A DNA stretch of 64,000 bases from Methanocaldococcus indicus (lineage in GTDB: Archaea; AGJL01; Methanococci; Methanococcales; Methanocaldococcaceae), in NCBI RefSeq assembly GCF_049554935.1, contig NZ_CP186926.1:1184001-1248000 (forward strand), given 5' to 3'. Below the pieces are notes generated by a model. That model saw only the letters and a list, made by a program, of their open reading frames with translations. It ran no database searches and was not told the DNA's origin. The translations under genes and the position numbers were made by a program. Positions 1 through 63,332 of the stretch are shown piece after piece. How positions within the stretch are numbered: position 1 is the first letter of the stretch; each line of letters opens with the position of its first letter.

Positions 1-224
1 AGTTTTAGAGCAATATCGGTATTTACATTTCCTTTTTTATTATGAAAATAAGCACCCAATCCTTTTGTTATTGCAGCATATAACAAATCAGTTCCAATAG
101 CAATTATTGGCTCAACTCCTAAAAATATCAATGATGGGGCCATCAATACTCCACCACCAATACCAGTAAGACCCACAACAACTCCAACTATAAACCCCAA
201 AATAATAAAAATGATCCAATGCAA
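1..224 (-). CDS. TSUP (TauE/SafE) family sulfur-compound transporter, 5' part (runs off window)
   Basis: Manual translation from TTG at 224, preceded by a GGTGA RBS: MHWIIFIILGFIVGVVVGLTGIGGGVLMAPSLIFLGVEPIIAIGTDLLYAAITK, with the GxxGxGGG TSUP signature; not in the ORF track. Confidence 0.85.
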   Translation of the reverse strand, partial: MHWIIFIILGFIVGVVVGLTGIGGGVLMAPSLIFLGVEPIIAIGTDLLYAAITKGLGAYFHNKKGNVNTDIALK

Positions 225-2968: not shown

Positions 2969-3657
2969 GACACTGTCAAGTTAACGACATCAACCAATTG
3001 TAGAACATCATGAAACTTTTAATCCAGCTAACAACTGTATCGAATTTGCTGTTATTAGGAAACCTATTATAAAATGCTTTAGTTCTTCGTTTGAGTAGTG
3101 AGAAAAAGCTTTCTACACAATTTCTCAGTCCGAATCTGACTCTTTCAAATTCTAAACCCAATCTTTGCAATGCCCACGGATACCATCTTCCACCATCGAC
3201 CAAAATCTTCGGCTTATTAGAGCAAAATTTTAATATACTCTTAACGAATAATATAGTATCGAGGCAGTTTCTTGTTTCAGAAACATAAACTCCCAAGCAC
3301 TCTTTCGATTCAACATCAATAGCAGACCATACGTAAATATTTTCATTTCCAATCTTTAGTTTGGTCTCATCGATTGCAATTGCGTATCTTTCCTTTCTTT
3401 CAGGTTCGTTTAAAACATCTTTAATCTTGTGATAATAAGTCCTAACCGACTCATGGCTTATACTTTCGAATTGGGAACGAAACAAACTTACCTTCCTCAA
3501 CGATAGTCCAAGATAATACAAAATCCCAGCTAAGATTTTAACTTCTATCGACTTCTTATTCCTTTTAAAAATCTTCTCCTCTTCGATTCTCTTATCGTGA
3601 GCTTTATATTTTATTATTTTTTATCAATTATTAATAAAAGCTTAACTTGACACTCTC
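2969..3657 (-). mobile_element. IS6-family insertion sequence (ISMja1-like), about 689 bp, degenerate
   Basis: 16-bp imperfect terminal inverted repeats: GACACTGTCAAGTTAA (2969-2984) and reverse complement of 3642-3657 GAGAGTGTCAAGTTAA, 14/16 match; encloses a DDE transposase; CpG-rich relative to flanks. Confidence 0.88.
2976..3607 (-). pseudogene. IS6-family DDE transposase with damaged 5' end
   Basis: [26 protein letters not shown] triad; the frame extends upstream of 3521 ([22 protein letters not shown]), but the apparent start ATA-AAG-CTC-ACG-ATA is out of frame with it. Confidence 0.8.
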
Positions 3658-21123: not shown

Positions 21124-21158
21124 GAGCATGCCTCCCTATAAAAGGGTTCGGCATGCTC
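21124..21158 (-). promoter_or_regulatory. archaeal SECIS element of selD (3'-UTR)
   Basis: Minus strand GAGCAUGCC-GAA-CCC-UUUUAUA-GGG-A-GGCAUGCUC: 9-bp stem, GAA/A internal loop, 3 C-G pairs; 82 nt after the selD stop. Confidence 0.93.
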
Positions 21159-21225
21159 TCAAACATTAAAATTATTTCTGATTTATTTTATTATTAGATT
21201 TTTAACTTTATTATTAGTTTTTGAT

Positions 21226-21245
21226 TGCCCAGCACCGAGCTTAAA
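21226..21245 (-). repeat. 3' arm of long-range inverted repeat in selD mRNA (overlaps stop codon)
   Basis: + strand TGCCCAGCACCGAGCTT (21226-21242) is the exact reverse complement of 22195-22211. Confidence 0.95.
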
Positions 21246-22257
21246 CTTCTAAAACTTTAACATCTTTACTTAAATAAGCTTTATTCCCTTTTCTTTTTAC
21301 TTCTCCAACTTCAAATGCATAAACTACTTTTTCTAATTCACTAATTAAATCATCCTTATACTCTCTTTTTGTAGATATTAACAAACCTCCTGCAGTTTCA
21401 GCAGAATAACCTTCTAATAATGGATGCCCAAAATTTTTACTTAGTTCTGGTGTCCCTCTAATACATGGTAGAAGATTTATTTCAATATCTACACCACTAA
21501 ATTTAGCAATATCATTTGCATGCCCTAATAAACCAAATCCAGTAACATCAGTTAAAGCATTTGCTATTTTATCTCCAACTTTTTTCTCAGCTTTTCTTAA
21601 AGCCAATAAGGATTTTCTATTAGATGTTGTCATTAACTCAATTGCTTTATTTATTATATATTCAGCTTCTTCTTTTGATATATTTAACATATCTCTAAAT
21701 TCTTCTGGCACTCTACTCAATGCCATTGCCGGCTGTGTTCCTAATGGTTTAGTTAAAATTAAGACATCTCCCACATTAGCTCCTTTTTTTGTTAATAGTT
21801 CTTCCTCACGTCCAACTCCTGTAACTGCTCCACCAATTAATGGCCAGGGATTCAGTATAGTGTGTCCTCCAACAATTGATGTTTTATCTTCTCTACAAAA
21901 ATCTTGGAATCCTTTTAACATATCCTTAGCCATTTGTATAGGCATCTTTTCAGGAATTCCTACAATTGCAAGAACACCAACAACATCTAAAAATCCCATA
22001 GCATAAATATCACTTAAAGAGTTGCAAGCAGCAATTTTTCCCTGAATGTAGGGATTATCTACAATTGGAGTAAAGACATCTACTGTCTTAGCAATTAATA
22101 AATTACCTCTTTTTATAACAGATGCATCATCTCCTAAACCAACAACACAATCTTTTAAATCTTCATCTAAAACTATGCCTTTAACTAAATTTTCAAGCTC
22201 GGTGCTGGGCAGCTTACAAGCTCATCCATGTAGTTTAACCATCTCAGTTAATCTCAT
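21241..22257 (-). CDS. selD: selenophosphate synthetase (selenide, water dikinase), selenoprotein with Sec at codon 12
   Basis: ATG at 22257 after GGTGA; MRLTEMVKLHG-UGA-ACKLPSTEL; UGA at 22224-22222; GDDAS, TVDVFTP, TDVTGFGLLGH, ETAGGLL; 338 aa; the ORF track shows only the C-terminal 252 aa. Confidence 0.96.
22192..22211 (-). repeat. 5' arm of long-range inverted repeat in selD mRNA, starting 11 nt after the Sec UGA
   Basis: + strand AAGCTCGGTGCTGGGCA (22195-22211) is complementary to 21226-21242. Confidence 0.95.
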
Positions 22258-63243: not shown

Positions 63244-63332
63244 GGCGCGGGGTACCGGGCTTGGTAGCCCGGGGCGGACTTCAGATCCGTCGAGGGCGAG
63301 AGCCCTCGGGGTTCGATTCCCCCCCTGCGCCG
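63244..63332 (+). tRNA. selC: tRNA-Sec (anticodon UCA)
   Basis: 9-bp acceptor stem GGCGCGGGG/CCCTGCGCC, 7-bp D stem CCGGGCT/AGCCCGG, 6-bp anticodon stem with CT-TCA-GA loop, long variable arm GAGGGC-GAGA-GCCCTC, 4-bp T stem, G discriminator, CCA not encoded. Confidence 0.97.

What the first reader, a model, noticed from the sequence alone, without database searches (positions are those of the whole stretch)
21124..22224. Long-range RNA duplex that could tether the 3'-UTR SECIS to the selenocysteine UGA of selD
Seen: in the selD mRNA (minus strand) the Sec UGA (22224-22222) is followed by a 10-nt spacer and then UGCCCAGCACCGAGCUUGAA (22211-22192). About 950 nt later, across the stop codon and first 3'-UTR bases, the mRNA reads UUUAAGCUCGGUGCUGGGCA (21245-21226). 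These form 17 consecutive Watson-Crick pairs (11 G-C), extendable to 20 with one G-U. The 3' arm is a GC island in an almost purely AU UTR, and the SECIS begins 67 nt beyond it. Established: archaeal SECIS elements act from UTRs; how they reach the UGA in Methanococcales is unresolved because archaeal SelB lacks the bacterial SECIS-binding domains; the minimal E. coli fdhF SECIS lies about 11 nt after the UGA. Inference: the duplex loops out the ORF, sits at the ribosome mRNA entry site when UGA is being decoded, may pause the ribosome, and brings the SECIS to a bacteria-like distance. Ribosomes translating through either arm would melt it, allowing feedback. I know of no description of such an element in archaea, but cannot check the literature.
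Basis: partly seen in the sequence, partly recalled or inferred. Interest (0 to 1): 0.95.

Follow-up and report, generated by a model that had tools for sequence, protein, structure and literature searches.

The report
Long-range helix linking selD UGA and SECIS
In the mRNA for selenophosphate synthetase of heat-loving methanogens, the stretch just after the selenocysteine UGA codon base-pairs with a stretch about 950 bases away, next to the signal that directs selenocysteine insertion; this pairing has been kept through many matched mutations, which suggests how the distant signal may reach its codon.

Summary

Evidence that the helix is real:
- In this 1.44-Mb genome, the only other GC-rich inverted repeats of this length and spacing flank the 16S rRNA genes.
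- All 18 complete selD loci of Methanocaldococcus and a sister genus keep the helix. 6 of 17 pairs changed on both sides and none on one side only.
- In 12 of 12 loci of Methanothermococcus and one further genus, the same 5' arm pairs with a different partner. That partner lies inside the ORF, about 50 nt before the stop, and also shows compensatory changes.
- Both partners lie 14-95 nt 5' of the SECIS.

The kind is already in print. Peiter et al. 2025 (PMC11881835) described ORF-complementary flanks of the fdhA 5'-UTR SECIS, which I reproduced in 10 of 10 loci. A similar 13-bp helix occurs in vhuD.

Tethering is the best-supported role, at about 0.5. Pausing and feedback are untested. In this genome hesB-like, fruA, vhuU, hdrA and fwdB show no such pairing.

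Verdict: a new variant of a known kind.

The parts
21241..22257 (-). selD (selenophosphate synthetase) coding sequence, 338 codons plus stop, with Sec at codon 12
   Evidence: translation with TGA=U. One search found orthologues with one in-frame TGA in 38 of 40 Methanococcales genomes (own included); one further locus is cut 5' of the codon and one genome had no selD-level match.
22222..22224 (-). Sec UGA codon
   Evidence: The context is H-G-U-A-C-K.
22212..22221 (-). 10-nt spacer between the UGA and the 5' arm. It is 6-10 nt across the 18 loci of g1 and g5.
22192..22211 (-). 5' arm of the long-range helix. The Watson-Crick core is 22211-22195, covering the codons for L-P-S-T-E-L.
   Evidence: GC3 is 5 of 5 in the arm codons against 0.13 for the rest of the gene.
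21226..21245 (-). 3' arm of the long-range helix. The Watson-Crick core is 21242-21226. It overlaps the stop codon and the first 15 nt of the 3' UTR.
   Evidence: It is the only alignable part of the 3' UTR besides the SECIS.
21159..21225 (-). AU-rich linker between the 3' arm and the SECIS. It is 67 nt here and 14-95 nt in relatives, and cannot be aligned between them.
   Evidence: Close strains carry a 14-nt and a 1-nt deletion and single-base differences here, but none in the arms.
21124..21158 (-). Archaeal SECIS hairpin: 9-bp basal stem, GAA/A internal loop, CCC/GGG clamp and a 7-nt loop
   Evidence: It is folded in the MFE and centroid of the whole mRNA.

Best explanation
The selD mRNA of thermophilic Methanococcales carries a selected long-range RNA helix.

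Anatomy:
- The 5' arm begins 6-10 nt after the Sec UGA at codon 12.
- The 3' arm lies about 950 nt downstream and 14-95 nt 5' of the SECIS.
- In Methanocaldococcus and its sister genus g5 the 3' arm overlaps or follows the stop codon.
- In Methanothermococcus and g4 the 3' arm is the G-V-G-K codons about 50 nt before the stop.
- The helix loops out nearly the whole ORF. The UGA and the SECIS emerge from the same end of the helix, a few tens of nucleotides apart.

Most likely role (inferred): the helix holds the 3'-UTR SECIS, with whatever factor binds it, next to the ribosome that has the UGA in its A site. This would raise the efficiency or priority of Sec insertion into SelD at high temperature.

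Status of each step:
- Shown: the helix exists in the sequence, is conserved, covaries, is favoured on the sense strand and is predicted to survive 85 C.
- Inferred: that it acts as a tether, and that this improves recoding.
- My odds: a real, selected RNA helix, about 0.9; a function in SECIS-to-UGA positioning or recoding efficiency, about 0.5.
For: Conservation and covariation
-, on 18 of the 19 g1+g5 loci (L016 is truncated and was left out): 17 core pairs, 99.3% of cells paired, 6 pairs changed on both sides (20 cells), none changed on one side only. 0 of 500 shuffles reached the observed percentage paired, the number of cells changed on both sides, or the covariation score. Controls with the partner slid by 1-3 columns gave 20.6-43.3% paired.
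- Read against the SelD tree, these amount to at least 8 separate double changes. They include a Thr-to-Ala and a Glu-to-Asp codon change that the non-coding arm followed.
- duplex energy at 37 C is -36 to -52 kcal/mol (-11 to -18 at 85 C), with z of -4.5 to -8.8, in 18 of 18 loci.

A second partner for the same 5' arm
- in 12 of 12 g3+g4 loci the same 5' arm has a 10-13-nt exact complement at stop-48 to stop-52.
- 98.6% of cells paired and 2 of 12 pairs changed on both sides (7 cells). One of these is a Val-to-Ile change matching a synonymous change in the other arm.
- Both partner sites lie 14-95 nt 5' of the SECIS.

Sense-strand RNA
- the sense duplex is more stable than the antisense duplex in 14 of 18 loci, equal in 1 and less stable in 3, with a mean difference of -3.2 kcal/mol. 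The loci are related, so this is not an independent count.

Other support
- GC3 of the arm codons is 5 of 5 in 11 of 18 loci, against 0.13-0.26 for the rest of those 11 genes.
- the helix is in the MFE and centroid of the 1191-nt mRNA. Its mean pair probability is 0.95 at 85 C, where only 21% of the bases are predicted to pair.
- only the 16S rRNA flanking stems match it in this genome.
- both arms are unchanged in contigs from independent runs, while the linker varies.

Family resemblance
- PMC11881835 (passages read) reports flank pairing for the fdhA SECIS. I reproduced it in 10 of 10 Methanocaldococcus loci, with covariation.
- vhuD has a 12-13-bp helix between UGA+48 and the last codons, just 5' of its SECIS, in 16 of 17 g1+g5 loci.
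Against: - In the M. maripaludis reporter of PMC11881835 (passages read), adding ORF-complementary flanks to a 5'-UTR SECIS did not change Bla activity significantly. mRNA fell about threefold, and only the normalised activity rose twofold.
- PMC9622424 (passages read) found no strict limit on UGA-SECIS distance at 520-679 nt, so no tether is required in that mesophile.
- In g2, 4 of 7 selD loci keep only an interrupted 10-11-bp version that does not stand out from background (z -0.4 to -1.3). The other 3 of 7 have nothing clear.
- In this genome hesB-like, fruA, vhuU, hdrA and fwdB show no comparable complement. hdrA and fwdB have long UGA-to-stop distances of 1431 and 945 nt, so a general tether rule would predict one there. 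My scans did not even locate their SECIS.
- Positions are confounded. The UGA is only 33 nt from the start codon and the SECIS is next to the stop. 'Near UGA and SECIS' therefore cannot be separated from 'near start and stop' within selD alone.
- There are no RNA data. No RNA-seq holder was listed.
- Energies above 37 C are extrapolations of the nearest-neighbour model.
Confidence: 0.55

Rival explanations
1. Roadblock only. The helix matters as a stable structure at the mRNA entry of a ribosome that has the UGA in its A site. It would slow the ribosome or disfavour release-factor action so that Sec-tRNA can be delivered, like a eukaryotic Sec redefinition element or a frameshift stimulator. 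Closeness of the partner to the SECIS would be incidental.
For: - The spacer from the UGA to the first pair is 6-10 nt in 18 of 18 g1+g5 loci and 9 nt in 12 of 12 g3+g4 loci. I recall this as the range of spacers for recoding stimulators.
- The helix is very stable.
Against: - A roadblock is most easily made by a local hairpin. Yet two lineages each use a partner about 915-990 nt away, and both partners lie within 95 nt of the SECIS.
- The related helices begin 25-26 nt (fdhA) and 48 nt (vhuD) after the UGA, too far to touch a ribosome decoding it.
Confidence: 0.15
2. End-to-end closure of the ORF, unrelated to the SECIS. Pairing a site 45 nt after the start codon with a site at the stop codon would serve one of three purposes:
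- mRNA stability;
- recycling of terminating ribosomes to the start;
- a selD-specific translational switch that senses ribosome traffic past the UGA, giving autoregulation of the Sec pathway.
For: - Both alternative 3' arms lie within 52 nt of the stop codon, and the 5' arm is 45 nt from the AUG.
- In most g1+g5 loci the arm includes the stop codon itself.
- SelD is itself needed to make Sec-tRNA, so a special control is plausible (established biochemistry, recalled).
- PMC11881835 saw an effect of added flanks on mRNA level, a threefold drop.
Against: - The analogous helices of fdhA (UGA near codon 135, SECIS in the 5' UTR) and vhuD (5' arm about 240 nt into the ORF) do not join start and stop. 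They do join the region 3' of the UGA to the SECIS flank.
- A single helix does not protect a 950-nt loop.
Confidence: 0.15
3. A DNA-level inverted repeat. The two arms would be sites of recombination (an invertible segment) or be kept identical by gene conversion. The matched changes would then reflect copying rather than RNA pairing.
For: All matched changes in the core are exact complements, with no G-U intermediates. Copying would also give this pattern.
Against: - All 38 selD loci that span the Sec codon read intact and in the same orientation.
- No strand-changing joint appears in contigs of 4 runs (contigs only, so rare forms could be missed).
- The helix extensions contain G-U pairs that favour the sense strand in 14 of 18 loci.
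- The arms are only 10-22 bp long.
- Two different partner sites evolved for one 5' arm, and one partner is protein-coding and changed an amino acid to keep pairing. That needs selection for pairing, not mere copying.
Confidence: 0.03
4. Chance complementarity, or conservation that merely follows from conserved amino acids and codon usage.
For: The 5' arm encodes the conserved K-L-P-x-T-E-L motif, so part of its sequence is constrained by the protein.
Against: - Genome-wide rarity.
- z of -4.5 to -8.8 in 18 of 18 loci.
- A non-coding 3' arm that follows every synonymous and non-synonymous change of the 5' arm.
- GC-ending codons that are atypical for the gene.
Confidence: 0.01

Closest known systems
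ORF-complementary flanks of the fdhA1 5'-UTR SECIS in Methanococcales (Peiter et al. 2025, RNA Biol, PMC11881835; passages read)
   Same: - Base pairing between a sequence beside the SECIS and the ORF shortly 3' of the Sec UGA would place the SECIS next to the recoding site.
- It is conserved across Methanococcales.
- It is longer in the thermophilic genera.
- It covaries. I reproduced it in 10 of 10 Methanocaldococcus fdhA loci: the 3' flank has 11-17 nt complementary to UGA+25..42, and in 7 of the 10 the listing also shows 8-12 nt of the 5' flank complementary from UGA+43.
   Different: - In selD the SECIS is in the 3' UTR, not the 5' UTR.
- Only one side of the SECIS is involved.
- The arm is separated from the SECIS by a variable 14-95-nt linker, whereas in fdhA it abuts the SECIS after about 6 A.
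- The helix starts 6-10 nt after the UGA, not 25-43 nt.
- The 3' arm overlaps the stop codon or lies inside the ORF.
- The partner site differs between lineages.
- The paper's text does not mention selD/sps pairing ('seld' 0 occurrences; the 10 'sps' occurrences concern SECIS strength and plasmid names). Its supplements could not be read.
Bacterial SECIS (for example E. coli fdhF); features recalled, not tested here
   Same: A stable helix starts about 10 nt after the UGA, so the ribosome meets it while decoding the UGA. The net arrangement is UGA, short spacer, helix, then SECIS nearby.
   Different: The bacterial element is a local hairpin whose apical loop is bound by the C-terminal domains of SelB. 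Here the helix is closed over about 950 nt, and the recognition element is a separate GAA/A hairpin outside the helix.
Eukaryotic Sec redefinition element (SRE) next to the UGA of SEPN1 and others (recalled)
   Same: A second cis structure close to the UGA that acts together with a distant 3'-UTR SECIS.
   Different: The SRE is a local stem-loop and has no pairing to the SECIS region.
Long-distance RNA-RNA interactions needed for readthrough or frameshifting in plant RNA viruses, such as tombusvirid proximal/distal readthrough elements and the BYDV frameshift (recalled)
   Same: A recoding site whose downstream sequence pairs with a 3'-UTR sequence kilobases away. They work alike in principle.
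   Different: Those are viral, eukaryotic ribosomes, a bulge or loop pairing of 5-6 nt rather than a 17-22-bp helix, and no SECIS.
Processing stems flanking archaeal 16S rRNA
   Same: They are the only other GC-rich inverted repeats of 17 nt or more, 100-2000 nt apart, in this genome.
   Different: They flank a stable RNA and serve endonucleolytic processing (recalled). The selD helix is a perfect duplex in an mRNA, and nothing here suggests cleavage.

Membership tests
SECIS-positioning complementarity (fdhA1 type, PMC11881835) | A sequence beside the SECIS is complementary to the ORF shortly 3' of the Sec UGA | tested here: met
   - g1+g5: 17-22 nt perfect complement in 18 of 18 loci.
- g3+g4: 10-13 nt in 12 of 12 loci.
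- The 5' arm starts 6-10 nt after the UGA, and the 3' arm ends 14-95 nt 5' of the SECIS stem.

SECIS-positioning complementarity (fdhA1 type, PMC11881835) | Conserved across Methanococcales with compensatory changes | tested here: met
   - 6 of 17 pairs changed on both sides.
- 2 of 12 pairs changed on both sides.
- g2: 4 of 7 loci keep an interrupted version and 3 of 7 have none.
SECIS-positioning complementarity (fdhA1 type, PMC11881835) | Longer complementarity in genera with higher growth temperature | tested here: met
   - 17-22 nt in Methanocaldococcus and g5.
- 10-13 nt in Methanothermococcus and g4.
- 10-11 bp, interrupted, in part of g2.

Genus names for g1 and g3 come from record titles. 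Growth temperatures are recalled, not from a call.
SECIS-positioning complementarity (fdhA1 type, PMC11881835) | Both flanks pair and abut the SECIS, forming a three-way junction on the ORF | tested here: not met
   In selD only the 5' side pairs, and a variable linker that cannot be aligned separates the arm from the SECIS. In fdhA the 3' flank pairs in 10 of 10 loci and the 5' flank also in 7 of the 10 listings.
SECIS-positioning complementarity (fdhA1 type, PMC11881835) | SECIS located in the 5' UTR | tested here: not met
   The selD SECIS is 2-122 nt 3' of the stop codon in the 32 loci where my scan found one.
SECIS-positioning complementarity (fdhA1 type, PMC11881835) | The pairing affects recoding efficiency or mRNA level | not testable with these tools
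   Only the published reporter data for artificial flanks exist (PMC11881835, passages read).
Archaeal (methanogen) SECIS element | Basal stem, GAA/A internal loop, 2-3 G-C clamp pairs and a 3-8-nt loop, in the UTR of a gene with an in-frame UGA | tested here: met
   Window 21158-21124. It applies to the SECIS hairpin, not to the long-range helix.
Bacterial SECIS | A local hairpin directly 3' of the UGA that SelB binds | tested here: not met
   The helix is closed over 912-987 nt. Only the spacing resembles the bacterial element. SelB binding was not tested.
Invertible DNA segment bounded by inverted repeats | Both orientations of the segment occur among genomes or reads | tested here: not met
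   One orientation in all 38 loci that span the Sec codon. No strand-changing joint in contigs of 4 runs. Raw reads were not available.

The most novel reading that the evidence does not exclude
In thermophilic Methanococcales the SECIS does not act purely 'from a distance'. For genes whose UGA is far from the SECIS, an RNA helix docks the SECIS region onto the mRNA just 3' of the UGA. This is seen in selD (shown here), in fdhA (published and reproduced here) and, more weakly, in vhuD. The result is a split, bacterial-like recoding module.

In selD the helix starts right at the ribosome's mRNA entry. It would therefore both pause the ribosome and present the SECIS. That would give SelD first call on scarce Sec-tRNA, a base-paired form of selenoprotein hierarchy and autoregulation.

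The change of partner site between lineages would be an example of a long-range mRNA helix being re-invented under selection.
Probability: 0.35. Interest if true: 0.85.

Novelty: new variant of a known kind. Interest (0 to 1): 0.72.

Why it matters
How the archaeal SECIS reaches the ribosome is an open question. Reviews and papers read here (PMC8211752, PMC11881835) state that no SECIS-binding factor is known and that archaeal SelB does not bind the SECIS.

What this finding adds:
- The selD helix is a strong comparative case that RNA-RNA pairing brings the SECIS to the UGA. It rests on at least 10 matched double changes and two alternative partner sites.
- It extends a phenomenon so far described only for the unusual 5'-UTR SECIS of fdhA to an ordinary 3'-UTR SECIS, and probably to vhuD.

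Why it is testable:
- In Methanocaldococcus the 3' arm is non-coding and the 5' arm can be changed synonymously, so clean disrupt-and-restore experiments are possible.

It also concerns the one enzyme that the whole selenoprotein pathway depends on.

Tried and rejected
Tried without result, or rejected:
- First scan for a 3' partner. It started at stop-25 and so missed the in-ORF partner in g3 and g4. Taken alone it wrongly suggested that these genera lack the helix. Searches corrected this.
- Other selenoprotein mRNAs of this genome. The hits for hesB-like, fruA, vhuU, hdrA and fwdB were AT-rich or lay in unrelated genes. For example, the fwdB 11-mer partner lies in a gene I read as pyrE-like from its translation. 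I took these as chance.
- SECIS of fwdB and hdrA. Neither was found with a strict or a relaxed pattern, so no tether test was possible for them.
- fdhA in this genome. It is absent. The PF00384 hit without a stop codon follows an upstream reading frame and has no SECIS; I read it as another molybdopterin oxidoreductase.
- Methanopyrus and other Sec-using archaea. They were not reached. 'phylum' returned the same 40 genomes, and the one genome-contig scan returned only Methanocaldococcus and Methanothermococcus records.
- RNA evidence. No RNA holder was listed, so expression, 3' end and structure are untested. Only contigs were available, not raw reads.
- A local 4-bp hairpin (AGCU/AGCU) directly after the UGA in this genome. 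It is not conserved in relatives and I dropped it.
- The 8-nt complement between UGA+29 and the SECIS loop in three g2 loci. It is a palindromic AT-rich word and I took it as chance.
- Supplements of PMC11881835 (Tables S1-S4, Fig. S1) could not be read. They may hold sps data that bear on novelty.

Literature searches behind the claim that the selD pairing is not in print: and passages read. Only the held library was searched.
Full report
**The observation**

The window's minus strand carries selD at 22257-21241, with Sec TGA at 22224-22222 in codon 12 (context H-G-U-A-C-K).
- Ten nucleotides after the UGA, the mRNA segment 22211-22192 is the reverse complement of 21245-21226, which spans the stop codon and the first 15 nt of the 3' UTR.
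- The pairing is 17 consecutive Watson-Crick pairs with 11 G-C, or 20 with one G-U (pair I4).
- A canonical methanogen SECIS hairpin (stem, GAA, CCC, loop, GGG, A, stem) lies at 21158-21124, 67 nt further on.

**Is it more than chance?**

- Against 200 random windows of the genome, the duplex energy has z = -5.7. The longest exact complement is 17 nt against a background maximum of 13.
- In the whole 1.44-Mb genome (28% G+C) there are 15 inverted-repeat pairs of 17 nt or more that lie 100-2000 nt apart.
- Only 5 of these have at least 50% G+C. Four are the stems that flank the two 16S rRNA genes; one was verified with Rfam and the other has the same sequence. The fifth is the selD pair.
- Contigs from two further sequencing runs of another study cover both arms with no difference in either arm. 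They do carry single-base differences in the ORF and linker, and a 14-nt and a 1-nt deletion in the linker.

So the 3' arm is not an assembly artefact. Among near-identical strains, variation avoids the arms.

**Relatives with the arm at the stop codon**

I fetched selD from all 40 Methanococcales genomes held. All 38 loci that span codon 12 have the in-frame TGA there.

In genus g1 the record titles name Methanocaldococcus. I take g5 to be its sister, because the two form a 100/100 clade in the SelD tree. In both, the sequence at or just after the stop codon is the reverse complement of the segment after the UGA. This holds in 18 of 18 complete loci; L016 is cut before the stop and was left out.
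- The perfect stretch is 17-22 nt.
- The spacer from the UGA is 6-10 nt.
- The 3' arm starts at stop-2 to stop+24.
- The SECIS stem follows 14-95 nt later.
- The rest of the 3' UTR cannot be aligned.

On the alignment, the 17 core pairs behave as follows:
- 99.3% of cells are paired.
- 6 pairs changed on both sides (20 cells) and none changed on one side only.
- No shuffle of 500 reached the observed percentage paired, the number of doubly changed cells or the covariation score.
- For the count of pairs changed on both sides, 1 of 500 shuffles did.
- For further pair types, 324 of 500 did, so that measure says nothing.
- Sliding the partner by 1-3 columns gives 20.6-43.3% paired.

Read against the tree, the changes amount to at least 8 separate double substitutions. 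They include ACC to GCU (Thr to Ala) and GAG to GAU (Glu to Asp) in the coding arm, each followed by the non-coding arm.

Duplex energies are -36 to -52 kcal/mol at 37 C and -11 to -18 at 85 C, with z of -4.5 to -8.8 against other windows of the same locus.

**A second partner in other genera**

My first scan began 25 nt before the stop and found nothing in the other genera. A scan of the whole locus corrected this.

In g3 the record titles name Methanothermococcus. In g3 and in g4, 12 of 12 loci have the same 5' arm, 9 nt after the UGA. It has a 10-13-nt exact complement inside the ORF at stop-48 to stop-52, in the codons for G-V-G-K. The SECIS stem follows 41-86 nt downstream of it. This distance was measured in 11 of the 12, because L026 ends before its SECIS.

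On these 12 sequences:
- 98.6% of cells pair.
- 2 of 12 pairs changed on both sides (7 cells): ACC to GCC with GGU to GGC, and AAC to AAU with GUU to AUU, a Val-to-Ile change.
- 0 of 500 shuffles reached the percentage paired or the covariation score.
- 107 of 500 reached the count of pairs changed on both sides, so that count alone is weak here.

In g2, which I take to be Methanococcus (no call names it), 4 of 7 loci keep an interrupted 4+6 or 5+5-bp version at the same columns. It does not stand out from background (z -0.4 to -1.3). The other 3 of 7 show nothing clear.

So one 5' arm has two different partners in two clades, and both partners sit just 5' of the SECIS. This is the strongest single argument that pairing itself is under selection, and that closeness to the SECIS or stop region is part of what is selected.

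**RNA or DNA?**

- The matched changes in the core are all exact complements, which copying at the DNA level would also give.
- The helix extensions, however, contain G-U pairs. These make the sense-strand duplex more stable than the antisense one in 14 of 18 loci, equal in 1 and less stable in 3, with a mean difference of -3.2 kcal/mol. The loci are related, so the Wilcoxon P of 0.002 overstates the case.
- All 38 loci that span codon 12 have selD intact and in one orientation, and no strand-changing joint appeared in the contigs.
- The arm codons end in G or C in 5 of 5 positions in 11 of 18 loci, against 0.13-0.26 for the rest of those 11 genes.
- The helix is in the MFE and the centroid of the 1191-nt transcript model. 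It keeps a mean pair probability of 0.95 at 85 C, where only 21% of bases are predicted to pair. This extrapolates the energy model.

I therefore take it to be a helix of the sense mRNA, with odds of about 0.9.

**What is known**

Four literature searches and passages of five papers were read.
- PMC11881835 (Peiter et al. 2025) reports that the fdhA1 SECIS, which lies in the 5' UTR, is flanked by 7 and 10 nt complementary to the ORF.
- That pairing would place the SECIS 43 nt 3' of the UGA. The paper says it is conserved in Methanococcales and longer in the thermophilic genera.
- In their M. maripaludis reporter, such flanks did not change activity significantly. They lowered mRNA threefold and raised normalised activity twofold.
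- The text does not mention any such pairing for selD/sps.
- PMC9622424 found no strict limit on distance.
- A 2021 and a 2026 review do not mention flank pairing.

I reproduced the fdhA case in 10 of 10 Methanocaldococcus loci examined:
- The 3' flank of the SECIS has 11-17 nt complementary to UGA+25..42.
- In 7 of the 10 listings, 8-12 nt of the 5' flank are also complementary from UGA+43.
- Four different covarying sequence versions occur.

The selD case differs in several ways: a 3'-UTR SECIS, one arm only, a variable linker, a start 6-10 nt after the UGA, and a partner that moved between lineages.

**Other selenoprotein mRNAs of this genome**

A pattern scan found six SECIS-like hairpins: hesB-like, fruA, selD, vhuD, vhuU and one orphan.
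- Only selD stood out in the test of the UGA-downstream region against the 3' region. The others had z of -1.3 to +1.3.
- A wider exact-complement scan added one case. In vhuD, 13 nt (7 G+C) at 48 nt after the second UGA pair with the last codons, ending 3 nt before the stop and about 35 nt 5' of the SECIS.
- This 12-13-nt pairing is present in 16 of 17 g1+g5 loci, with z of -3.2 to -6.6. One locus has a compensated change.
- The one locus without the pairing has Cys instead of Sec at that codon. Another locus with Cys keeps the pairing.
- In g3 and g2 the pairing is short or absent. 28 of 30 loci were processed before the script stopped.
- hdrA and fwdB, whose UGAs are far from the stop, show nothing convincing. 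I could not find their SECIS. That is a gap in the tether reading.

**Mechanism**

Shown:
- A selected sense-strand helix closes the ORF.
- The UGA (6-10 nt 5' of the helix) and the SECIS (14-95 nt 3' of it) leave the helix from the same end.

Inferred:
- The helix raises the local concentration of the SECIS and its unknown binding factor at the ribosome decoding the UGA.
- Because it starts at about the mRNA entry of a ribosome with the UGA in the A site, it may also slow that ribosome.

Translating ribosomes must open it at both arms. It would therefore form mainly on mRNAs with few ribosomes past the UGA. This allows, but does not show, feedback on selD.

The rivals are:
- a pure roadblock;
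- ORF closure for stability, recycling or control unrelated to the SECIS;
- a DNA-level repeat.

The fdhA and vhuD helices argue against the first two. Both join the region 3' of the UGA to the SECIS flank without lying near the start codon or at the ribosome entry. Within selD alone, however, 'near UGA and SECIS' and 'near start and stop' are confounded. The published reporter result also shows at most a modest effect in a mesophile.

**Verdict**

- The kind is known since 2025 for fdhA, so this is a new variant rather than a new category.
- Its value lies in the quality of the comparative evidence, in extending the principle to 3'-UTR SECIS elements, and in offering a clean genetic test.

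Noticed in passing
window 63244-63331 (+): A tRNA-Sec gene (Rfam RF01852, 72.5 bits) lies 41 kb from selD in the same window.
   Followed up: no
L039:2875-2887 (-) with L039:2732-2744 (-); own genome, outside the window: vhuD mRNA has a 13-nt G+C-rich segment 48 nt after the second Sec UGA that pairs with the last codons just 5' of the vhuD SECIS. The pairing is kept in 16 of 17 loci of g1+g5. The one locus that lacks it has Cys at that codon.
   Followed up: partly
L070-L079 (fdhA loci of ten Methanocaldococcus genomes): The published pairing of the fdhA 5'-UTR SECIS flanks with UGA+25..54 is present in 10 of 10 loci. Four covarying sequence versions occur. This genome itself has no fdhA.
   Followed up: yes
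L039 about 3150-3200 (-), the hdrA-vhuD spacer of the own genome: A hairpin GGGGCAU/AUGCCC is flanked on both sides by GAUGA (tandem G-A, k-turn-like). It sits in the hdrA 3' spacer, where no GAA/A SECIS was found. Whether it serves hdrA Sec insertion is open.
   Followed up: no
G000:C1:978133-978170 (-): An orphan hairpin fits the SECIS pattern (10-bp stem, GAA, CCC, loop, GGG, A). No UGA-containing ORF lies upstream. It sits just before a gene whose product reads like a PII nitrogen regulator.
   Followed up: partly
G000:C1:1018265-1019570 (-): fwdB has an in-frame TGA, but no recognisable SECIS within 800 nt upstream or 1500 nt downstream. A mobB-like gene starts 60 nt after its stop.
   Followed up: partly
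G000:C1:145050/146668 and 707233/708851: These are the only other G+C-rich inverted repeats of 17 nt or more at 100-2000 nt spacing in the genome. They flank the two 16S rRNA genes.
   Followed up: yes
window 21178-21204: In contigs of two other runs, the AU-rich linker between the 3' arm and the SECIS carries a 14-nt deletion, a 1-nt deletion and single-base differences. Both arms and most of the SECIS are unchanged.
   Followed up: no
L010 (G004) 3' UTR: One Methanocaldococcus genome has a 24-nt AT-rich insertion between the stop codon and the 3' arm. The arm itself is intact at 21 nt perfect. This shows that overlap with the stop codon is not essential.
   Followed up: no
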